Positions 18,825-43,638 of a DNA stretch of 64,000 nt are shown one piece after another. The stretch's first letter is position 1; each line of letters starts with the position of its first letter. The stretch is from Candidatus Pacearchaeota archaeon (lineage in GTDB: Archaea; Nanobdellota; Nanobdellia; Pacearchaeales; JAPDKA01). A model generated the notes under the pieces. It was not told the origin of the DNA. It was given only the letters and a program-made list of their open reading frames with translations, and ran no database searches. The position numbers and the translations under genes were made by a program. The stretch spans positions 258,617 through 322,616 of the forward strand of contig JAWAFA010000001.1 in assembly GCA_038890875.1 (NCBI GenBank), given 5' to 3'.

Positions 18825-19478
18825 TTATTTTTCAACTATAAACAGTTGTTTTTTCTTTAAAGCCCTTTCTATAATCTCTTTTTCCCTCTCGGTTACTATT
18901 GTATGATAAAAAATTGCATGTCCAAGGTTAACTGCCTTTCCTAAATTTTTAACATTTTTGAGGTATGCACTCGAAAGGTCTGCTCCCCAAAGGTCTGCTC
19001 CCCAAAGGTCTGCTCTCCAAAGGTATGCTCCCGAAAGGTCTGCTCCCGAAAGGCATGCTCTCCAAAGGTATGCTCCCGAAAGGTCTGCTCCCGAAAGGCA
19101 TGCTCTCCAAAGGTCTGCTCCCGAAAGGTCTGCTCCCAAAAGGTCTGCTCCCCAAAGGTTTGCTTCTTTTCCTCTAAAAAATGGTAAATAAAGATTTCTT
19201 GCCACAACACCTCGAAGCTTAGAATTATCCATGATTATAGGATCTAAATCAAGGTTAGCGTTTGTTAAATACTTTTGCAGTTCTTCAAAAGATTCATGAT
19301 CAGCAAGATTAAAACCTTCTTCTAATTCTATTCTAGAAAAATCCCTTTCTCCAGCTAAGATTTTTTTTACAAGTTCGTCTCCTTTCATTGGTATAAGTTG
19401 TGTTACCATATTAATTAAATAAAGATTAAGGTTTATAAATCTTTCGGTTCTTTGACTACTCTTAAGATACGACATCAA
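18825..19478 (-). CDS. Pentapeptide-repeat protein.
   Basis: About 17 consecutive A(D/N)L(S/W)GA pentapeptides (ANLWGADLLGADLSGADLWRACLSGADL...). Confidence 0.8.
   Translation of the reverse strand: MMSYLKSSQRTERFINLNLYLINMVTQLIPMKGDELVKKILAGERDFSRIELEEGFNLADHESFEELQKYLTNANLDLDPIIMDNSKLRGVVARNLYLPFFRGKEANLWGADLLGADLSGADLWRACLSGADLSGAYLWRACLSGADLSGAYLWRADLWGADLWGADLSSAYLKNVKNLGKAVNLGHAIFYHTIVTEREKEIIERALKKKQLFIVEK
18966..19170. repeat. Tandem ~15-bp direct repeat (aaaggtctgctcccc-type, ~13 copies) that encodes the pentapeptide repeats.
   Basis: Visible nucleotide periodicity of 15 bp with minor variants (ggtctgctcccc / ggcatgctctcc / ggtatgctcccg). It produces open frames in five of six frames, which are the ORF-track artefacts at 18941-19210. 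Confidence 0.8.
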
Positions 19479-19829: not shown

Positions 19830-20609
19830 CTAATTGCTCGGCGGCGCTTTCGCTATTTTCCATAGAACCTCAAATTGTTTTATATAAAGGTCAGCTACCT
19901 CTTCACTTTCAATTCTTATAACCAATGGTTTTAATGTAAAAATAAAATAAATAATTTTGTTTCCATAAATAGAATGAACAACTTTATTGTTGAAATATTC
20001 TTTAGGTAAAATTTTAACTTTTACATATGGGTGTTTTGTAATTGATTTTCCTTCTGCAAATAATTGTCTTGAAAAAATTTTGTATTTTTCTCTTAAATTC
20101 CAAAATCTTTTCCATATATATTCAGGAACTTGTTTAATAAATTCTTCTTTTGAAAATGAATTCATTACAAGAATTTCTTTATATTTTCGTTCAATTCCAT
20201 CTTTAATTATATCATTCAAAATATACCTTATTCCTTCTATTCCCTCATAAACTTCAACTTTTGATGTTGTTATTATTTCTTTTTCTTTTAAATCTGCTAT
20301 TTTTTCCTTCAATCTTTGTTTTTGTTTTTCCAGGTATTCTTCCTTTGCCTCTAAAATATTAATCAAATTATTGGGGTCAGTTATTCTAAACAGCTTTATC
20401 TTTCCCTTTATTATATAATTTATCAAGCCTTTTCCTAACAAAGAATTTAAAGAATCATAAACATGGGCTCTTGATATTGTTGTATATCTTGCAATATCAT
20501 AAGCTTTTGCTTCCTTTAATTTCAAGAGGATAAGATAAACTTCAGCCTCATTATTTGTCAATCCCAATTCAATTAAATCCGCTTTTTGTAGCATATTATT
20601 ATTAAACAC
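19830..20609 (-). CDS. TrmB-family transcriptional regulator.
   Basis: N-terminal HTH: LGLTNNEAEVYLILLKLKEAKAYDIARYTTISRAHVYDSLNSLLGKGLI. Full TrmB-like length (259 aa) with a C-terminal effector domain. Divergent from the rSAM gene. Confidence 0.7.
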   Translation of the reverse strand: MFNNNMLQKADLIELGLTNNEAEVYLILLKLKEAKAYDIARYTTISRAHVYDSLNSLLGKGLINYIIKGKIKLFRITDPNNLINILEAKEEYLEKQKQRLKEKIADLKEKEIITTSKVEVYEGIEGIRYILNDIIKDGIERKYKEILVMNSFSKEEFIKQVPEYIWKRFWNLREKYKIFSRQLFAEGKSITKHPYVKVKILPKEYFNNKVVHSIYGNKIIYFIFTLKPLVIRIESEEVADLYIKQFEVLWKIAKAPPSN

Positions 20610-20734: not shown

Positions 20735-22114
20735 ATGAGAATGGAATCAAAATTACAAAAATCACAGAACCAGTCAGAATCACAAATTTATCAAAAAAAC
20801 ATAAAGGCTTATCCGCAGGATGCACAGTCTGTATTTAATTATCACAAATTACCAACCATACCATTAAAAGACTCTTACTTAATTTATTCTCCTTTTGCTA
20901 GAGAATTTGCTTTAATAAAAAGACATTTACTAAATGAAAAAATACTTTTGAGAAAACTAAAAAAGAGGGGTTTTTTTAATTCAAACCCTTTTCCTCAAGA
21001 AAAAAATACGCTTAAGGTTGGTTTAATAACTACTACTGCTTGTAATCAAAAATGTGCCTACTGCGCTACTTGCGCTGAATTTATAGGAAATAAAAAGATT
21101 TATTCAAAAAAACTTTTTATGGATGAAGACGCCGTTATTTTAACTTTAGATAAATTGCTTAAAAAGTATAAAATAGAAGCGATTAATTTTATGGGCGGGG
21201 AACCTACTTTAAATATGCCTATTATAAAAAAAGTCATAGATTTAATAAATAATAAAAGTAAAAAGACACTATTCTCTATTCAAACAAATGGAGTAATTAA
21301 TAAAGAAGATTTGAATTATCTAATTAGTAAGGGAATCGTTTTCTCGATTTCATGGGATGGAATAGAAAATGATAAATTTAGAGCTTCATCTAAAATTATA
21401 AAGAAAAATATATTAAAACTTGTAAAAAAAGGGGCCTTATTCAAAATTCGTATGACTGTTGGAAAGTGGAATTCAAGCAATATCATAAAGTCTATTAGAT
21501 GGCTTTTAAAAAATGGTGTTAAGTTTATACAACTTGAACCGATGTTACCGGAAGGAAGGGGAAGCAAATTATCTGATCAAAGTTTAACCCCTCAAGAATT
21601 TAAAACAATTTTCTTTAATACCTTAAAAATTGTGGAGAAGAAAAAATGTTTTTTAATAAATTATGCCTTTGCAAATCTTTTTTCACCTAAGCTCTTTTTT
21701 TGTGATTCTGCAGCAGGCAAAAAAATTATATTGAATGCAGACGGAAGTATCTCTTCATGTTACAAAGTCCAAAGAAGAAAAGACCCTCTTTCAGAAAATT
21801 TTATAATTGGGGAATATAATTTTAAAAAAATCAAATTTAAAAAATCAAATTTTAATGTAAATTCTTATCCAACATGTAAGAAATGTGCTTTTTATTACCT
21901 GTGTTCTGGTGCCTGTCCATTTGAAAATATAAAATCTAATGAAGGAGTGGACAAATATTTATGCGACTTAAGAAGTTCTTTATTGATGAGCGGTATTCTT
22001 CATTTGTATAGTTGTAAATTAAAGAAAAATATGTGTAGTTTAGAAGGTCTTTATATTATGGGAAGAATTGCCATGAAAAGAAAATATGATCGTTTGCCAA
22101 ATTTTATGATTTAA
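20735..22114 (+). CDS. Radical SAM enzyme with a C-terminal SPASM/twitch Cys-rich domain and a ~90-aa N-terminal extension.
   Basis: CxxxCxxC radical-SAM motif (TTTACNQKCAYCATC). Auxiliary cluster cysteines follow (CDSAAGK...SSCYK...CKKCAFYYLCSGACPF). Confidence 0.8.
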   Translation: MRMESKLQKSQNQSESQIYQKNIKAYPQDAQSVFNYHKLPTIPLKDSYLIYSPFAREFALIKRHLLNEKILLRKLKKRGFFNSNPFPQEKNTLKVGLITTTACNQKCAYCATCAEFIGNKKIYSKKLFMDEDAVILTLDKLLKKYKIEAINFMGGEPTLNMPIIKKVIDLINNKSKKTLFSIQTNGVINKEDLNYLISKGIVFSISWDGIENDKFRASSKIIKKNILKLVKKGALFKIRMTVGKWNSSNIIKSIRWLLKNGVKFIQLEPMLPEGRGSKLSDQSLTPQEFKTIFFNTLKIVEKKKCFLINYAFANLFSPKLFFCDSAAGKKIILNADGSISSCYKVQRRKDPLSENFIIGEYNFKKIKFKKSNFNVNSYPTCKKCAFYYLCSGACPFENIKSNEGVDKYLCDLRSSLLMSGILHLYSCKLKKNMCSLEGLYIMGRIAMKRKYDRLPNFMI

Positions 22115-22224: not shown

Positions 22225-22470
22225 TTATGAAGGCGTTTTTAGATCAGATCATCTCGACCGACAATAGAAATATGCGAATATCTTGTAAATAATCTAAGGC
22301 TATGTTGCAGATATTGGATGTGGAACAGGTATTTATTCAATTTTATGGCAAAACATGGTGCATCTTCGGTTACAGCAATTGATATTGATCCCCGAGCTTG
22401 TAAAAATGTAAAAGAAAATGCTCATCGCAACAAGTTTCTATCGCAAAATGGCCCCCCATCCGAGTGCTGA
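22225..22470 (+). pseudogene. Frameshifted remnant of a PrmA/HemK-like class I SAM methyltransferase.
   Basis: Frame a reads ...VADIGCGTGIYSILWQNMVHL... then a stop. The +1 frame continues as ...KHGASSVTAIDIDPRACKNVKENAHRNKF, which are MTase motifs I and II/III. Locally GC-richer than the flanks, with no intact ORF. Confidence 0.5.
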
Positions 22471-22502: not shown

Positions 22503-24155
22503 TTATTTTTTGAAGATAGAATATTTCCTTTCTAAAATTTCTTTTGCTTTATCAATTTCTGCTCTAATCTGCTCATCAGTCAAACTATTAGGAGTAGTAT
22601 AAACTTTTCTGAATTCTCTAGGAACATTTTGCAAATTTTGACTTTTTTCTGGAATTCCTAAATATACTGATACATCAGCAGGAGAATATCTTCTAATTTT
22701 ACTGTATGCTTTTTCTAAAGTTTTTCCTGTTCTAACATCATCTTCAATAAGTAGTGTGTGCTTACCCCTAATCACACTTATATCATCTAATTCTTTATAT
22801 GGTCTGTTTTCGGTTCTGCAATATTCGTCTATATAGATATTTCTTATTGGTAAACCCAATAGTTCAAACATACTTGCATATACAAAACCTTCTGGTCCAA
22901 TCGCTACTCCAATATCTACCATACCTTCATCCATGACTTTTCTAACTGAAGAAAAAGAAACAAGTAAATCATGTGGAAAATGTTGTATCTGTAAATTACG
23001 CCTGGCAAAATAATCTAGTGCTTCTTTTTTTAATAGCTCATCTACAACTCTACCGAGAATTTCATATTTTTGAGCTTCTTGGTCTCTACTTCTTAATATA
23101 TTTCTCGTTCCTTCTGGATTTATTAGCAAGGTTTGCCTAAAATTTATTAACTCTTGTTCGATTGTGTGATAAAAATGTTGTACCAATTCATCCATTGGAG
23201 CATAAGAATTATCCAATAATTCAATAAATCTGGTTCTCTGAACAAGTCTTTCTGAGATTTCATCTAAAAGAGCTTCATCTTGAAATGGGATAAAAACAGG
23301 TCTAAGAGCATCTTTAACCCTACCTTCCAGTTTGTCACGCGCTTTCATACAACTTAGCTTGCTCTCTAAAAAATATTTAGCTATTCGTCTAGCAGCAGCA
23401 CTTCCCTTTAACTCATCTTCTTCTAAAAAAGGATTTGAGGTATATAAAGCCACATCACTAGGTATTAATCCTTTTTTATATGGAAGTGTGCTTCTAATTG
23501 TGCTTAATCCAGAAGTTCTGCCTTTCCAAAAAGTATCAAAATTTACAGTATCATTGCCAATGAAAAATTCTTCAGATTTCTCAGATTTCATTCCAGGCCA
23601 TCTGAATAAACCAATATACGCCCCATTAACTTTAACATCCTTTTCTCTTAAGTATCTTGTAACTTCTCTTAATGCTTTACCTGTAACGAAGTCAATATCT
23701 GTAAGCAATACTGATTTCTTGTCACGTAATTGTTTTACTTTTTCATCGTCTATTTGTGGTTCTTTCATATCTCTTTTACGGTGCGAATAATCAATCTCAA
23801 ATATTGGAAAACCTACCATTTCAAAAATTTGTGCATACGGGATTCCTGCATTTTTTATGCCAACAACGGCATCATAATTTTGTCTTAATTGTAAAGCCGC
23901 ATCTACATGAGAAATTAATGGAGAGTCTAAATATCTTTTCCATTGTTCTCTTGCTTTCCATTGCGATAATAGAAATGCTTCTGTGTGTAAAATTCGATCA
24001 TGCGGACTAAGTTCTTCTTTTAATAGAACTTTAGCTAAACTAGCTAAATCTCCTTCAATCCTAGCTGCTTCTTCAGTTATTTCTGGGTTTCTAATTGGTG
24101 AATGAGGTTGAACTATCCGTAGCTCCAATCTTAAACCACAACCGCACATTGTCAT
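22503..24155 (-). CDS. Hypothetical protein with two phosphoribosyltransferase (PRT type I)-like domains in tandem.
   Basis: Two PRPP-binding-loop-like motifs: VLLTDIDFVTGKAL (~residue 150) and TLLIEDDVRTGKTL (~residue 470). 550 aa. Higher GC than the surrounding genes. Confidence 0.45.
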   Translation of the reverse strand: MTMCGCGLRLELRIVQPHSPIRNPEITEEAARIEGDLASLAKVLLKEELSPHDRILHTEAFLLSQWKAREQWKRYLDSPLISHVDAALQLRQNYDAVVGIKNAGIPYAQIFEMVGFPIFEIDYSHRKRDMKEPQIDDEKVKQLRDKKSVLLTDIDFVTGKALREVTRYLREKDVKVNGAYIGLFRWPGMKSEKSEEFFIGNDTVNFDTFWKGRTSGLSTIRSTLPYKKGLIPSDVALYTSNPFLEEDELKGSAAARRIAKYFLESKLSCMKARDKLEGRVKDALRPVFIPFQDEALLDEISERLVQRTRFIELLDNSYAPMDELVQHFYHTIEQELINFRQTLLINPEGTRNILRSRDQEAQKYEILGRVVDELLKKEALDYFARRNLQIQHFPHDLLVSFSSVRKVMDEGMVDIGVAIGPEGFVYASMFELLGLPIRNIYIDEYCRTENRPYKELDDISVIRGKHTLLIEDDVRTGKTLEKAYSKIRRYSPADVSVYLGIPEKSQNLQNVPREFRKVYTTPNSLTDEQIRAEIDKAKEILERKYSIFKK

Positions 24156-24345
24156 ACATATTGATTAACTTGCAAGTTTATAAAGCTTTCTATTAATTAG
24201 TAATTTATAAATAGTAACATGGCAAGCTCCAGGAAAGGCTCTCCAACAAAAACTCCTCCAAGTTAATTCTGTATAAATGAGACAAAAAAGATTTTAATGT
24301 TTAATACATCAACAATAAGTTAACAAAACCCTTAAGATAAACGAC

Positions 24346-25053
24346 CTATAAGCTTAATTTTTCGTACTTATTAACAATTGCATACAATATTCCCTTATTT
24401 GTTTTTTCAAAGTCACGAAGAAATTTTTTAGTGATCTCTTTATTGCCGCCTTCTTTTTTAGGAATCTCAGAAATTTCAGGAATCTTTATTTTATTTAGTA
24501 GACAATAAATTTTATTTTCTTCTTCCTTGCAAAAATAAAGAGGCCTTATTATCTTAATTTTTTTCTTCTCTATAGGGTGGATTATCTCTTTTTCTCCATT
24601 AAAGAAATAATTTAATATACTTACAGCAGCATCATTAAGGCATTCCCCCCTAGCAATTATAGTTTTTAATTTTAATGCAAATTTTTTAATTATTTTCTCT
24701 TCAAAAATTGATTTAGGACTTTGGCTTACAGCAAAATCAATCTTCTTCTTTACACAATAATCTCGAATATATTTGTAATCTTTTCTTTGAGAATATTGAA
24801 TAAATAATGCTATAATATTTATCTTTCTTTGTTGGCAGTATCTATGAAAAAAGTGAAGCAAAGCAAAGTCATTTTTATTACCTTCTCTGACAACAATAAG
24901 GACCTTATCTTTCTTAGGTTTTGTTTTTATCATTTCATAAGCTCTTATCGTTCGTAAGATTTTTTTCTCATAAAACCTAATAAAGTGTCTAGCACATAGT
25001 TTTTTCCCGCTTATATCAGTATAAACTGGCTTTGCATCACATTGCTTGCACAT
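24346..25053 (-). CDS. TtuA/TtcA/NcsA-like PP-loop-superfamily protein with an N-terminal zinc finger and a degenerate PP-loop.
   Basis: N-terminus C-KQ-C...C-AR-H (TtuA-type CxxC...CxxH). C-terminal conserved IIRPLYFCKEEE (the RPL motif). The expected SGGKDS is replaced by VVREGNKND. Confidence 0.35.
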   Translation of the reverse strand: MCKQCDAKPVYTDISGKKLCARHFIRFYEKKILRTIRAYEMIKTKPKKDKVLIVVREGNKNDFALLHFFHRYCQQRKINIIALFIQYSQRKDYKYIRDYCVKKKIDFAVSQSPKSIFEEKIIKKFALKLKTIIARGECLNDAAVSILNYFFNGEKEIIHPIEKKKIKIIRPLYFCKEEENKIYCLLNKIKIPEISEIPKKEGGNKEITKKFLRDFEKTNKGILYAIVNKYEKLSL

Positions 25054-25781: not shown

Positions 25782-26507
25782 TTATAGTAATTTCCAGATT
25801 AATTCAAATATTTTTTTTTGAGTTTGCGCAATATCTTTATTTTTTATTATAACTCCAATTAATTTTTCTTTGTTCATTGTTAGAAACGCTACGTTTTCAT
25901 TATAAATATAAGTCATTGTGTTTATTTTTATTTCTTTTGGAAGAAATTTGGTTTTAGTATAGGTTTTATTTCTTAATTTAAGTTCTTTATTAATTTTGTC
26001 CGTTTTTTCTTGTATTATTCTACAAAATATTTTTTCTTTTATTCTCTTTTCACTCCAGTGAGGAAAATAAAATTCCAAGGTTTTAAATATTTCATCACAT
26101 TCTATTACTAGAATTTCTTCGGGCTTTATTTTTAATATATTTTCTAATATTGTTTTTATTCCTTCAACTCCTTCATAAATTTCTATTTCTGGTTTTTCTT
26201 CTACTGTCTTTTTTATTTGCTCTAATTTTGGAATTATAGATTTAATAGTATTTAATTTTTCTTCTTCTATTTTTAAAACTCTTTTTGGATCAACTGCCTC
26301 AAAATATCTAGTTCCTGATTTGATAGTATAAAAAACAAGTCCTTTTTTTAATAAAGAATTCAAAATACTATAAATTGTTGTCCTAGGAAGATTTAATCTT
26401 TTTGATATTTCATTAACTTTAGAATTACCTAATTTTAATAATTCTATATAGATCTCTGCTTCTTTATCATTTAGTCCTATTTTTTTTAAAGCATATTTTT
26501 CTTCCAT
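25782..26507 (-). CDS. TrmB-family transcriptional regulator, paralogous to the one at 19830-20609.
   Basis: HTH IGLNDKEAEIYIELLKLGNSKVNEISKRLNLPRTTIYSILNSLLKKGLV. Divergently oriented to the three-gene unknown cluster. Confidence 0.65.
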   Translation of the reverse strand: MEEKYALKKIGLNDKEAEIYIELLKLGNSKVNEISKRLNLPRTTIYSILNSLLKKGLVFYTIKSGTRYFEAVDPKRVLKIEEEKLNTIKSIIPKLEQIKKTVEEKPEIEIYEGVEGIKTILENILKIKPEEILVIECDEIFKTLEFYFPHWSEKRIKEKIFCRIIQEKTDKINKELKLRNKTYTKTKFLPKEIKINTMTYIYNENVAFLTMNKEKLIGVIIKNKDIAQTQKKIFELIWKLL

Positions 26508-42612: not shown

Positions 42613-43638
42613 TCATTTATGCCTCTTTTTCTTTCTATTTTTGGTTTTTTTATATCTGCAATAGCCTTTTTTTCCCTCATTTTTTACTAGCATCATTGCT
42701 TCATCGGCATGTTTTAAGAGCTCTAGCATAGAATTGGCATCATAGCCATAGGTCGCACAACCTACACTAACTCCTATTTTGCCTCTGAACTCTCGCACTT
42801 CTTTCGCAAATTCAATTGTTGCATAATTACTGACCTCTTTGACAATTCTTCGTGCAATTTTATCAACTTCTTTTGGAGAAGCTTCTGGGATGATAATTAC
42901 AAACTCATCCCCTCTGTAACGCCTTCCTAAAGTATCTATAGAACGACAATATTTTCTTAAACCTTCAGCAATTAACTTTAATGCTAGATCGCCTCTTAGA
43001 TGATTATAGTTATCATTTATAGCTTTAAAATTATCAACATCTATGAAAAGAAGTGAGACATATTTTTTCTTTTTGCTTCTTTTTGCTCGCTCTACTTCTT
43101 TTTTTAATTGTTCGATTATATATCTTTCATTAAACAAGCCTGTTAATGAGTCAATCATCACCTCACGCTTCAATGATTCGATTTCTTTTGTTTGTCTTGC
43201 TCCAAGAAGATGTACTAATTTCTCAATTCTTTTCATTTCTTTTAGTACTTCATAGGCTTCTACCCTACTTTTCTTAAAAAAATAAAACTTTAATTTTGAT
43301 ATCCCATCAGTAATTTTTGGAGCAACATAACTTAACATTATATCTGCAAATTGGTTTTTCCTTGCCCTTTCTTCTTCATGATTATTTGAATCTATTTCTG
43401 ACATTAGGGTATACTGCCTTTTCATTATTGTTCTAAGATTGCCTATAAGCTCTCTAAGCATTATTCTAGCATTTATATAATCTTCATAAGTAAATTTTTT
43501 AGAGTAGTGTGCATACTGCATATTCAAACTATCACTCTCTTCTTGGATGCCCTTTAATTCCTTCAAAAATCTTTCTACATAAATTCTTACTTTTTTGTCT
43601 GCACTTTTTAACATCTCTTCAAAAACCTTATTTTTCAT
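42613..43638 (-). CDS. GGDEF-domain protein (diguanylate-cyclase fold) with a degenerate active-site motif and an N-terminal coiled-coil region.
   Basis: DSLTGLFNERYI..., FIDVDNFKAINDNYNHLRGDLAL, and RYRGDEFVII where RYGGEEF is expected (the first Gly is replaced by Arg). No TM. Confidence 0.65.
   Translation of the reverse strand: MKNKVFEEMLKSADKKVRIYVERFLKELKGIQEESDSLNMQYAHYSKKFTYEDYINARIMLRELIGNLRTIMKRQYTLMSEIDSNNHEEERARKNQFADIMLSYVAPKITDGISKLKFYFFKKSRVEAYEVLKEMKRIEKLVHLLGARQTKEIESLKREVMIDSLTGLFNERYIIEQLKKEVERAKRSKKKKYVSLLFIDVDNFKAINDNYNHLRGDLALKLIAEGLRKYCRSIDTLGRRYRGDEFVIIIPEASPKEVDKIARRIVKEVSNYATIEFAKEVREFRGKIGVSVGCATYGYDANSMLELLKHADEAMMLVKNEGKKGYCRYKKTKNRKKKRHK

What the first reader, a model, noticed from the sequence alone, without database searches (positions are those of the whole stretch)
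22503..24155. GC-shifted gene encoding a tandem double-PRTase protein of unknown function.
Two PRPP-binding-loop-like motifs (VLLTDIDFVTGKAL and TLLIEDDVRTGKTL) are spaced ~320 aa apart in one 550-aa polypeptide. This is not the architecture of the common housekeeping PRTases, which are single-domain (Apt, Hpt, PyrE, PyrR) or, for PRPP synthetase, a single motif-bearing C-terminal domain. The gene is noticeably GC-richer than its neighbours and sits next to a degraded methyltransferase fragment, which suggests a horizontally acquired islet.
Basis: partly seen in the sequence, partly recalled or inferred. Interest (0 to 1): 0.5.

Follow-up and report, generated by a model that had tools for sequence, protein, structure and literature searches.

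The report
Two salvage phosphoribosyltransferase genes fused
This archaeal gene is a recent in-frame fusion of two neighbouring, very divergent phosphoribosyltransferase-like genes that small symbiotic archaea often keep beside a nucleoside hydrolase, so it probably recycles scavenged nucleobases, and it is not a foreign or defence gene.

Summary
The 550-aa ORF at 22503-24155 (-) is real. Both PRPP-loop motifs are present, at residues 149-162 and 467-480. Each half gives a confident type I PRTase-fold model, and the halves are paralogues of each other.

The architecture has a simple origin. The closest relatives (75-81% identity, other DPANN archaea) encode the two halves as adjacent genes 5-7 nt apart. 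In the window a small indel just before the first gene's stop codon joins them. The old TAA and the second gene's ATG (M270) are still visible. Assemblies of two separate sequencing runs give the identical fused protein.

Among 13 distinct loci that carry the N-type gene:
- 8 have a second PRTase paralogue adjacent or fused.
- 7 have a divergent IU-type nucleoside hydrolase directly downstream.
- 1 Woesearchaeota operon carries three PRTase paralogues plus the hydrolase.

About 30 long tandem proteins from unassigned metagenome contigs show the same domain order.

No curated subfamily threshold is met. No sequence homologue has a solved structure, and there are no viral or defence-system hits.

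The horizontal-transfer reading fails. GC is +0.3 SD, GC3 is below the window mean, codon usage is typical, and the flanking genes are chromosomal housekeeping genes.

Most likely function: a bifunctional nucleobase-salvage PRTase. This is inferred, and the substrates are unknown.

The parts
22503..24155 (-). Fused ORF of 550 aa plus stop. An N-type and a C-type PRTase-like module lie in one reading frame.
   Evidence: ORF listing. Pfam PF00156 in two stretches. The identical protein with the same neighbours appears in Logan assemblies of runs SRR27730023 and SRR27730025.
23349..24155 (-). N-type module, residues 1-269: N-terminal helices, a PRTase core and a C-terminal subdomain. In the closest relatives this is a separate gene of about 260 aa.
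24066..24134 (-). Conserved N-terminal motif, residues 8-30 (LRLELRIVQPHSPIRNPEITEEA). Family consensus: LxLEQRL...PHSPIxNPxLT. Residues 1-20 are modelled with low confidence.
   Evidence: Alignments A4 and A8: P24 and T27 are nearly invariant. pLDDT is 53-64 over residues 1-20.
23772..23789 (-). YSHRKR, residues 123-128. In the family profile alignment it lines up with the flexible catalytic loop (SSYK) of purine PRTases. S124 and H125 are nearly invariant.
   Evidence: Profile-to-PDB alignment against Giardia GPRT 1dqn. Conservation in A8.
23670..23711 (-). PRPP-loop-like motif 1, residues 149-162 (VLLTDIDFVTGKAL). It has the non-canonical acidic pair D-x-D.
   Evidence: Position. D153, D155, G159 and T161 are nearly invariant in N-type proteins. 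The first domain of most long tandem relatives carries the same D-K-D form.
23346..23356 (-). Fusion junction. The relic stop codon TAA (23356-23354) is now out of frame. A 5-nt spacer follows, then ATG (23348-23346), which encodes M270 and is the former start codon of the C-type gene.
   Evidence: DNA alignment with the split loci L018 and L007. Sequence of the junction. N-type homologues end ...YFKERQR*...YFKETA* or ...YFRG*. C-type homologues start at the position equivalent to M270.
22971..23348 (-). Helical bundle at the start of the C-type module, about residues 270-395. It acts as the linker in the fused protein.
   Evidence: AlphaFold2 model of residues 270-550 shows helices H3-15 to H90-116 with high confidence. 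The region aligns with the N-termini of separate C-type proteins.
22506..22970 (-). C-type PRTase core, about residues 396-550. It resembles 6-oxopurine PRTases.
   Evidence: Foldseek best hits are 5vog, human HGPRT, PRTFDC1 and Sulfolobus HGXPRT, with E 1e-6 to 1e-5. All 19 C-type members weakly hit TIGR01203 HGPRTase. Model pLDDT 91.1.
22818..22832 (-). IDEYC, residues 442-446. Y445 aligns with the flexible-loop tyrosine (KSYC) of human HGPRT. I, D and E are nearly invariant in C-type proteins.
   Evidence: phmmer alignment to HGPRT chains. Conservation in A9.
22716..22757 (-). PRPP-loop motif 2, residues 467-480 (TLLIEDDVRTGKTL). It has the canonical E-D-D...T-G-x-T form.
   Evidence: Position. 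E202, G208 and T210 of A9 are invariant, and D203 and D204 are nearly invariant.
24177..24184 (-). TTTATAAA, an archaeal TATA-box-like element about 25 nt upstream of the ATG. It suggests the gene has its own promoter and a leaderless or short-leader mRNA. This is inferred from the sequence only.
   Evidence: Read directly from the upstream sequence. No tool tested it.

Best explanation
The ORF is a lineage-specific in-frame fusion of two adjacent paralogous genes. Both encode very divergent type I phosphoribosyltransferase-fold proteins.
- The N-type protein resembles OPRT and the PRK02277 family, and has a D-x-D ribose-phosphate loop.
- The C-type protein has a helical bundle followed by an HGPRT-like core with a canonical E-D-D...TGxT loop.

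A small indel just before the N-type stop codon shifted the frame by the amount needed to read through the 5-nt spacer into the ATG of the C-type gene. These points are shown by the data.

The gene pair belongs to a recurrent DPANN module. That module can also hold a third paralogue (here called C2-type) and, directly downstream, a divergent inosine-uridine-type nucleoside hydrolase. This too is shown.

The proposed mechanism is inferred. In these nucleotide-auxotrophic symbionts the hydrolase would split scavenged nucleosides into ribose and free bases. Each PRTase module would then bind PRPP through its ribose-5-phosphate loop and transfer the phosphoribosyl group to a different nucleobase, giving nucleoside monophosphates. 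On this view the fused protein is a bifunctional salvage PRTase. Type I PRTases work as dimers, so the two modules may also pack against each other as an intramolecular pseudo-dimer. The base specificities are unknown.
For: Fusion:
- N-type proteins of 261-265 aa (66-77% identical to our N half) and C-type proteins of 281 aa (73-81% identical to our C half) are separate proteins.
- They are adjacent genes 5-7 nt apart in L018, L025/L026/L028, L027 and L007.
- The relic TAA, the 5-nt spacer and the ATG are visible at 23356-23346.
- Two independent run assemblies give the identical 550-aa product.

Fold:
- Both halves give confident models, with pLDDT 92.4 and 91.1.
- Both match only type I PRTases at the top of the fold searches.
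- The two families are paralogues.

Catalytic potential:
- Both ribose-phosphate loops are conserved across their families.
- So are the residues that align with the flexible catalytic loops: S124/H125, and the I-D-E stretch beside the tyrosine that aligns with HGPRT Tyr104.

Genomic context (13 distinct N-type loci):
- 7 have an IU_nuc_hydro gene immediately downstream, often overlapping: L001, L019, L022, L030, L031, L036, L040.
- 8 have a second PRTase paralogue adjacent or fused.
- L040 (Woesearchaeota) reads N, C, C2, hydrolase as one tight four-gene cluster.
- Other neighbours are pentose or nucleotide genes: PfkB kinase, DeoC and a HAD nucleotidase-like gene, a PNP-APRT fusion, PurN, and a RuBisCO large subunit next to a tandem relative.
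- Some C2-type proteins are fused to HAD phosphatases.

The order D-x-D loop then E-D-D loop, 280-290 aa apart, recurs in about 30 long proteins.
Against: - No enzyme activity or substrate is known for any member.
- Similarity to characterised PRTases is weak. NCBIfam scores are 18-30 bits against cut-offs of 107-506. Foldseek TM-scores are 0.3-0.55.
- The N-type loop has D-x-D in place of the canonical adjacent acidic pair.
- In the C-type loop, the position aligned with the catalytic Asp137 of human HGPRT is Arg, Val or Ile.
- The nearest named family for the N-type module (PRK02277) includes GfcR, a non-catalytic sugar-phosphate sensor (PMC10838023).
- The window itself has no nucleoside hydrolase gene, and the window's own neighbours give no functional hint.
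- The linked hydrolases have DIGSDxDD in place of the canonical DxDxxxDD.
- The full-length protein was not modelled, so contact between the two modules is untested.
Confidence: 0.55

Rival explanations
1. One or both modules are non-catalytic ligand sensors with a PRTase fold, as in GfcR, PurR or PyrR. They would bind PRPP, a sugar phosphate or a nucleotide and control the activity of the partner module, the adjacent nucleoside hydrolase or another protein.
Against: No HTH or other nucleic-acid-binding domain was detected in any member. Residues that align with the catalytic flexible loops are conserved in both families, whereas this loop is restructured in GfcR. Up to three paralogues sit in one operon with an enzyme, and fusions to HAD phosphatases exist. 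Both patterns look like a metabolic pathway rather than a regulator.
Confidence: 0.2
2. The two PRTase-fold modules together form a divergent PRPP synthetase-like enzyme, or another pentose-phosphate enzyme. One example would be phosphorolysis of a nucleoside monophosphate to ribose-1,5-bisphosphate, feeding the RuBisCO nucleoside pathway. It would not be a nucleobase PRTase.
Against: Each half is a complete PRTase domain with its own ribose-phosphate loop, and each is about as long as a whole PRPP synthetase. Pfam Pribosyltran_N is not detected. Scores are 17.6 bits against a cut-off of 506. The N-type gene often occurs with the hydrolase and without a C-type gene in the stretch of DNA held, so the two-domain unit is not obligatory. 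OPRT, APRT and HGPRT rank above PRPP synthetase in every search.
Confidence: 0.1
3. One reading: a horizontally acquired, GC-shifted islet gene, possibly part of a phage-defence island.
For: The gene is about 5 GC points richer than its four nearest neighbours. A decayed methyltransferase fragment lies beside it. Neighbourhoods of the gene pair differ between relatives.
Against: GC is +0.3 SD of the window's genes, GC3 is below the mean, and codon usage is typical. The closest homologues are from the same DPANN lineages. There is no PADLOC hit and no viral relative. No integrase, transposase or tRNA lies within about 11 kb of the gene. The surrounding genes are housekeeping genes.
Confidence: 0.03
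4. The fusion is an assembly or sequencing artefact, and the organism really has two separate genes.
For: All close relatives are split. A one- or two-base indel suffices to create the fused frame.
Against: Assemblies of two different runs, plus the NCBI MAG, give the identical 550-aa product with the same neighbours. The indel site (gagagcaagc) is not a homopolymer. An independent fusion, N-type with C2-type (P0002), was seen on at least 14 contigs from several sources, and about 30 long tandem proteins exist. The runs may come from one study, so the support is not fully independent.
Confidence: 0.05

Closest known systems
6-oxopurine phosphoribosyltransferases (HGPRT/HGXPRT; NCBIfam TIGR01203; e.g. 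human HGPRT 1bzy, Sulfolobus HGXPRT 4z1o)
   Same: The C-type core has the same fold. It has the same E-D...T-G-K-T ribose-5-phosphate loop and a tyrosine aligned with the flexible-loop Tyr. These enzymes are its best sequence and structure matches.
   Different: Scores are only 23-28 bits against a cut-off of 150. Sequence similarity is confined to about 40-60 residues. The catalytic Asp after the acidic pair is replaced by Arg, Val or Ile. A 125-aa helical bundle precedes the core. The module is paired or fused with a second, different PRTase module.
Orotate phosphoribosyltransferase and the archaeal 'OPRT-like' family PRK02277 (includes the regulator GfcR)
   Same: These are the best Foldseek matches (3mjd, 2ps1) and the best NCBIfam match for the N-type module. 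The longest structural alignments, about 198 columns, are to OPRT.
   Different: It scores 22-30 bits against cut-offs of 107-115. It has a D-x-D loop in place of D-D. It has no HTH. It has extra N-terminal helices, a conserved N-terminal motif that is modelled with low confidence, and a C-terminal subdomain with a conserved WPG...FxxFW signature.
PRPP synthetase (ribose-phosphate diphosphokinase)
   Different: There, both domains together make up about 300 aa and only the C-terminal one keeps the ribose-phosphate loop. Here each module is about 270 aa with its own conserved loop, and the modules also exist as separate genes. No family threshold is met.
Nucleoside hydrolase plus PRTase purine salvage of purine-auxotrophic protozoa (Trypanosoma, Leishmania, Trichomonas)
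   Same: The inferred logic is the same: an IU-type nucleoside hydrolase frees bases, and PRTases convert them to nucleotides in organisms that lack de novo synthesis (papers listed, e.g. PMC10208901, PMC10474468).
   Different: In the archaeal loci the genes are physically coupled in operons, the PRTases are a distinct divergent clade, and nothing has been tested biochemically.
Other fused salvage enzymes in the same organisms, e.g. the MTAP-like phosphorylase fused to APRT in locus L007
   Same: It is a fusion of consecutive or related salvage enzymes in a reduced archaeal genome, and it lies directly upstream of a split N/C pair.
   Different: That fusion joins two well-recognised families that score well above their Pfam cut-offs. 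The present fusion joins two uncharacterised paralogues.

Membership tests
Type I phosphoribosyltransferase superfamily (Pfam PF00156) | Score above the Pfam gathering threshold | tested here: met
   35.1 bits against a cut-off of 26.3, E 9.8e-9, in two stretches.
Type I phosphoribosyltransferase superfamily (Pfam PF00156) | Alpha/beta core fold shared with solved type I PRTases | tested here: met
Type I phosphoribosyltransferase superfamily (Pfam PF00156) | PRPP or ribose-5-phosphate loop: hydrophobic strand, two adjacent acidic residues, then T/S-G-x-T | tested here: met
   Fully met in the C module (LLIEDDVRTGKT, invariant or nearly invariant in the family). Met only as a variant in the N module (LLTDIDFVTGKA, D-x-D, also conserved).
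Hypoxanthine/guanine PRTase (NCBIfam TIGR01203, equivalog) | Score above the curated cut-off of 150 bits | tested here: not met
   27.8 bits for the whole protein and 23.4 bits for the C half. All 19 C-type members hit weakly, best E 2e-7.
Hypoxanthine/guanine PRTase (NCBIfam TIGR01203, equivalog) | Catalytic Asp directly before the T-G of the loop (Asp137 in human HGPRT; the role of this residue is from established knowledge) | tested here: not met
   In the phmmer alignment, EDDVRTGKT pairs with EDIIDTGKT, so the position is Arg here and Val or Ile in relatives.
Orotate PRTase (TIGR00336) and OPRT-like PRK02277/GfcR | Score above the curated cut-offs (106.8 and 115 bits) | tested here: not met
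   21.0 and 29.5 bits. 25 of 33 N-type members hit PRK02277 only weakly.
OPRT-like PRK02277/GfcR regulators | N-terminal helix-turn-helix DNA-binding domain | tested here: not met
   No HTH family was found by Pfam in the protein or in relatives. The N-terminal 20 residues are modelled with low confidence.
PRPP synthetase | Score above the NCBIfam cut-off, plus an N-terminal Pribosyltran_N domain | tested here: not met
   17.6 bits against a cut-off of 506. There is no Pribosyltran_N or Pribosyl_synth hit in Pfam.
Known anti-phage defence system proteins (PADLOC-DB) | Match to any defence-system protein model | tested here: not met
   No family at E <= 0.01 for this protein or for P0002. No relatives in viral contigs.
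Nucleobase salvage PRTase (functional class) | PRPP-dependent formation of a nucleoside monophosphate from a free base | not testable with these tools
   Supported only by context: linkage to a nucleoside hydrolase in 7 of 13 loci.

The most novel reading that the evidence does not exclude
The N-type, C-type and C2-type proteins could be a previously unrecognised clade of PRTase-fold enzymes. The clade is seen in DPANN archaea, with long tandem relatives on unassigned metagenome contigs. Its chemistry or substrates could differ from classical nucleobase salvage. One possibility is a two-site enzyme that works with the unusual nucleoside hydrolase to channel host-derived nucleosides. Another is cleavage of nucleoside monophosphates to pentose bisphosphates that feed the archaeal-type RuBisCO pathway. 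The conserved N-terminal LxLEQRL...PHSPIxNPxLT peptide, which is modelled with low confidence, could serve as a docking or regulatory element.
Probability: 0.12. Interest if true: 0.7.

Novelty: new variant of a known kind. Interest (0 to 1): 0.4.

Why it matters
DPANN archaea are thought to depend on hosts for nucleotides, yet their salvage enzymes are mostly inferred from weak annotation.

This gene points to a recurrent, uncharacterised module of up to three divergent PRTase paralogues plus an atypical nucleoside hydrolase. The exhaustive search found 349 representative proteins. There is no specific Pfam or NCBIfam model and no solved structure for any sequence homologue.

If the module is the main route from scavenged nucleosides to nucleotides, it fills a gap in metabolic reconstructions of these organisms. 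It would also define new PRTase subfamilies with an unusual D-x-D ribose-phosphate loop.

The window's fused gene is a clear example of gene fusion by a terminal frameshift, with the relic stop codon still visible. It also suggests that the two products act together. The practical value is moderate: it is a set of targets for enzymology rather than a new kind of system.

Tried and rejected
- **One alignment of fused and split relatives.** MAFFT placed the C-type proteins onto the N half (A2, A3, A7). I therefore dropped full-length structure prediction with a mixed alignment and modelled the two halves separately. Contact between the modules is untested as a result.
- **Searching genome contigs with the broad N-type alignment A4.** It failed because no stretch was conserved enough. 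I used the C-type alignment A5 and the narrower N-type alignment A10 instead.
- **N-type profile against PDB sequences.** Nothing scored below E 0.02.
- **Micrarchaeota upstream gene.** A 306-308 aa gene lies upstream of the C-type gene in L008 and L009. I suspected it was an N-type partner because of its N-terminal motif and an FLDTSVTGT loop. Profile comparison gave no significant match, so I leave this unproven.
- **Bacterial single-domain C-type relatives.** These (L010-L017) pair with metallophosphoesterases, or are fused to DUF4915. I judged them too distant to inform this protein.
- **Riboswitch, promoter and terminator scans of the region.** Nothing exceeded chance.
- **Literature searches for tandem or double PRTase proteins and for DPANN salvage.** No description of this family turned up.
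- **Cluster look-up of long tandem forms.** It gave no organism names.
- **Neighbours in the window.** The PP-loop gene upstream and the radical SAM gene downstream are not conserved neighbours in any relative. I did not treat them as part of the system.
Full report
**1. The observation**

The window has an uninterrupted 550-codon ORF at 22503..24155 on the minus strand. A relaxed PRPP-loop pattern matches nowhere else among all ORFs of at least 60 aa in the window. Pfam's general PRTase model PF00156 matches in two stretches, above its gathering score (35.1 against 26.3 bits). The two halves also match each other, by BLASTP (29% identity over 89 residues, E 2e-7) and by profile-profile comparison of their families (97.6% probability, E 2.6e-12 over 112 columns). 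So the tandem double-PRTase description is correct.

The neighbouring degraded methyltransferase is real too. Between 22296 and 22470 (+), motif I (DIGCGTG) and motif II (AIDID) of a class I methyltransferase lie in two different frames. Joined, they match PrmA with E 8e-12, but only over positions 165-209 of a 296-position profile.

**2. The GC and horizontal-transfer claim**

- The gene's GC is 0.328. The 55 ORFs of at least 150 aa in the window average 0.319 +/- 0.035.
- Only the four nearest genes are lower (0.22-0.28).
- GC3 is 0.181, below the window mean of 0.226. The slightly higher GC therefore comes from amino-acid composition and not from a foreign mutational bias.
- Synonymous codon usage ranks 16th closest of 54 genes to the pooled usage.
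- The window is ordinary archaeal chromosome: PolB, RadA, FEN1, a Y-family polymerase, HisRS, another class II synthetase, enolase, a DHH/RecJ-like protein and tRNA/rRNA methyltransferases.
- NCBI names the identical protein as a phosphoribosyltransferase from a Candidatus Pacearchaeota MAG.
- PADLOC has no hit, and two scans of viral contigs found no relatives.

I conclude that the islet and defence idea is not supported.

**3. What the protein is**

The word-indexed search found only the protein itself and one 31%-identical 527-aa protein, P0002, also from Pacearchaeota. An exhaustive HMMER search of 1.84 billion representatives found 349 relatives with E <= 1e-3 and 45 with E <= 1e-30. The best hits cover only one half of the query each:
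- proteins of about 255-285 aa that match profile positions 5-275 (N-type);
- proteins of about 280 aa that match positions 282-553 (C-type).

Follow-up searches found N-type proteins up to 77% identical and C-type proteins up to 81% identical to the corresponding halves. All of them are separate proteins. On contigs they are adjacent genes on the same strand, in the order N then C, 5-7 nt apart. This holds in L018, L025/L026/L028, L027 and L007.

The junction in the window aligns base by base with L018. The former stop TAA is still present at 23356-23354 but is out of frame. A 5-nt spacer follows, then ATG at 23348-23346, which now encodes M270. N-type homologues end ...YFKERQR*...YFKETA* or ...YFRG*. 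The window reads ...YFLESKLSC-M.... An indel of one or two bases after codon E264 therefore fused the genes.

The identical fused product, with the same neighbours, occurs in assemblies of two different sequencing runs as well as in the MAG, and the indel site is not a homopolymer. I take the fusion as real and leave about 5% for an artefact.

**4. The wider family**

Among the 150 best representatives, hidden Markov models built here separate the following groups:

| Group | Count |
|---|---|
| N-type, single domain | 36 |
| C-type, single domain | 22 |
| Third paralogue (C2-type, the kind fused in P0002), single domain | 26 |
| C2-type fused to a HAD phosphatase (domains identified) | 3 |
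| Long proteins of 430-960 aa with two PRTase domains | about 31 |

- In most of the 20 long proteins examined, the first loop is D-K-D...[TS]G and the second is E-D-D...[TS]G, 280-290 residues later. This is the same order as in the window's protein.
- The long forms come from unassigned metagenome contigs. One contig carries a RuBisCO gene, and another carries Arf-family and EI24-like genes.
- Single-domain C-type relatives also occur in Micrarchaeota, Planctomycetota, Thermodesulfovibrio and Geobacteraceae.

The tandem arrangement is therefore recurrent, and the DPANN pair is a split or re-fused version of it. Which state is ancestral was not determined.

**5. Structure**

- Each half was modelled with its own family alignment. 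The N half gave pLDDT 92.4 and pTM 0.89, with residues 1-20 at low confidence. The C half gave pLDDT 91.1 and pTM 0.86, with a helical bundle of about 125 aa before the core.
- The C half is closest to 6-oxopurine PRTases, with E 1e-6 to 1e-5.
- By sequence, the N-type profile has no PDB hit below E 0.02. The C-type profile reaches HGPRT and PRTFDC1 at 4e-8, but only over the 40-residue loop segment.
- In NCBIfam, 25 of 33 N-type members weakly hit the archaeal OPRT-like family PRK02277, and 19 of 19 C-type members weakly hit HGPRTase. All are far below the cut-offs.

**6. Signs of catalysis**

Both loops are conserved in their families.
- In N-type proteins, D153, D155, G159 and T161 are nearly invariant.
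- In C-type proteins, E, G and T of E-D-D...T-G-x-T are invariant and the two D are nearly invariant.

Residues that align with the flexible catalytic loops of purine PRTases are conserved as well.
- YSHHKR of the N-type family aligns with VSSYKG of Giardia GPRT.
- IDEYC of the C-type family aligns with KSYC of human HGPRT.

Two points count against a classical enzyme. The N-type acidic pair is D-x-D and not adjacent. The position of HGPRT's catalytic Asp137 is Arg, Val or Ile in C-type proteins.

**7. Genomic context**

Thirteen distinct loci with an N-type gene were examined.

| Arrangement | Loci |
|---|---|
| N then C | L018, L025, L027, L007 |
| N-C fused | the window |
| N then nucleoside hydrolase | L019, L022, L030, L036 |
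| N, C2, hydrolase | L031 |
| N-C2 fused, then hydrolase | L001 |
| N, C, C2, hydrolase (tight four-gene cluster, Woesearchaeota) | L040 |
| N alone | L038 |

Seven of the thirteen loci have an IU_nuc_hydro gene immediately after the PRTase gene or genes, usually with overlapping or nearly abutting stop and start codons.

Other neighbours are nucleotide or pentose genes:
- a PfkB kinase, DeoC, a HAD nucleotidase-like gene and triose-phosphate isomerase in the P0002 loci L001 and L002;
- a purine-nucleoside-phosphorylase-APRT fusion in L007;
- PurN and 5-formyltetrahydrofolate cyclo-ligase in L008;
- a RuBisCO large subunit next to a tandem relative in L034.

The window itself has no hydrolase gene. 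Its local neighbours are a weak NcsA/TtuA-like PP-loop protein, a PAP2 phosphatase, two TrmB regulators and a radical SAM/SPASM protein. None of these is a conserved neighbour elsewhere.

**8. Interpretation**

The best-supported reading is a bifunctional nucleobase-salvage PRTase made by fusing two neighbouring paralogues. The linked hydrolase, where present, would free bases from scavenged nucleosides, and the paralogous PRTases would convert different bases to nucleotides using PRPP. The L040 operon, with three paralogues and one hydrolase, fits 'several base specificities plus one hydrolase' better than an obligate heterodimer. Type I PRTases are dimers, however, so the fused modules may still pack together.

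The fusion, the folds, the paralogy and the gene linkage are shown by the data. Catalysis, substrates and any contact between the modules are inferred.

The rivals are:
- non-catalytic sensors like GfcR (PMC10838023), at about 0.2;
- a PRPP-synthetase-like or other pentose-phosphate enzyme, at about 0.1;
- an assembly artefact, at about 0.05;
- horizontal acquisition or defence, at about 0.03.

**9. Novelty and score**

The protein belongs to the type I PRTase superfamily. It belongs to no characterised subfamily, because every specific threshold and the HGPRT catalytic Asp test were not met. It represents an uncharacterised set of paralogues with a distinctive loop variant, a conserved N-terminal peptide that is modelled with low confidence, and recurrent pairing. 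I rate it a new variant of a known kind. The interest is moderate (0.4). It is useful for understanding DPANN nucleotide salvage and for PRTase enzymology, but it is not surprising in kind.

Noticed in passing
window 22296-22470 (+): A frameshifted, truncated remnant of a PrmA-like class I SAM methyltransferase. Motifs I and II lie in different frames, and only about 45 of 296 profile positions are left.
   Followed up: yes
window 42613-43638 (-): A 341-aa protein with a strong GGDEF diguanylate-cyclase domain (E 1.5e-36) on a contig attributed to a Pacearchaeota archaeon. Cyclic-di-GMP signalling genes are unusual in archaea (from general knowledge; not checked here).
   Followed up: no
window 20735-22114 (+): A radical SAM/SPASM protein whose best match is PapB-type peptide maturases, far below the cut-off. 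It is convergent with the PRTase gene. No precursor peptide was identified nearby.
   Followed up: partly
window 24346-25053 (-): A 235-aa NcsA/TtuA/TilS-like PP-loop protein scoring far below the family cut-offs. The usual SGGxDS ATP-binding motif is not evident in the sequence. It may be a degenerate or divergent tRNA-thiolation paralogue.
   Followed up: no
window 18825-19478 (-): A pentapeptide-repeat protein. It is by far the strongest codon-usage outlier in the window (distance 0.31 against 0.07-0.20 for the rest) and has the highest GC locally, probably because of its repeat composition.
   Followed up: partly
window 19830-20609 (-) and 25782-26507 (-): Two TrmB-family regulator paralogues bracket the 5-kb segment that holds the radical SAM gene, the methyltransferase remnant, the fused PRTase, the PP-loop gene and a PAP2 phosphatase. 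A TrmB gene also lies near P0002 in L002 and L003.
   Followed up: no
L019 6559-7512: A 317-aa sigma-54-like protein (Sigma54_DBD, with an RpoN-box-like ARRTIAKYRE) lies directly upstream of an N-type PRTase gene. Sigma70_r4-containing genes are nearby. Its N-terminus (MTLELRLTPSLKLAQLQ) resembles the LxLEQRL motif at the N-terminus of N-type PRTases. The organism of this contig was not established.
   Followed up: partly
L001 6502-7662, L019 8304-9470, L040 6604-7725: The nucleoside hydrolases linked to the PRTase genes are long (373-394 aa). They carry DIGSDxDD near the N-terminus in place of the canonical DxDxxxDD metal-binding fingerprint.
   Followed up: partly
L007 1220-2518: A 432-aa fusion of an MTAP-like purine nucleoside phosphorylase with an adenine PRTase, directly upstream of a split N/C pair. 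An AAA_28 (NadR-like) ATPase and a CYTH protein lie downstream.
   Followed up: partly
L034 3682-7064: A 632-aa tandem PRTase relative (P0057) lies 56 nt downstream of a RuBisCO large-subunit gene on an unassigned metagenome contig.
   Followed up: no
L008 4845-5771 and L009 4845-5765: In Micrarchaeota, the C-type gene is preceded by, and overlaps, a 306-308 aa gene with no Pfam hit. That gene has an N-terminal LxLxQxL...PP motif and an FLDTSVTGT loop. It could be a very divergent partner PRTase, but profile comparison was not significant.
   Followed up: partly
L010 6320-7090, L011 6456-7109, L012 6551-7258: Bacterial single-domain C-type relatives are each followed by a calcineurin-like metallophosphoesterase gene. 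In L011 the PRTase domain is fused to DUF4915.
   Followed up: partly
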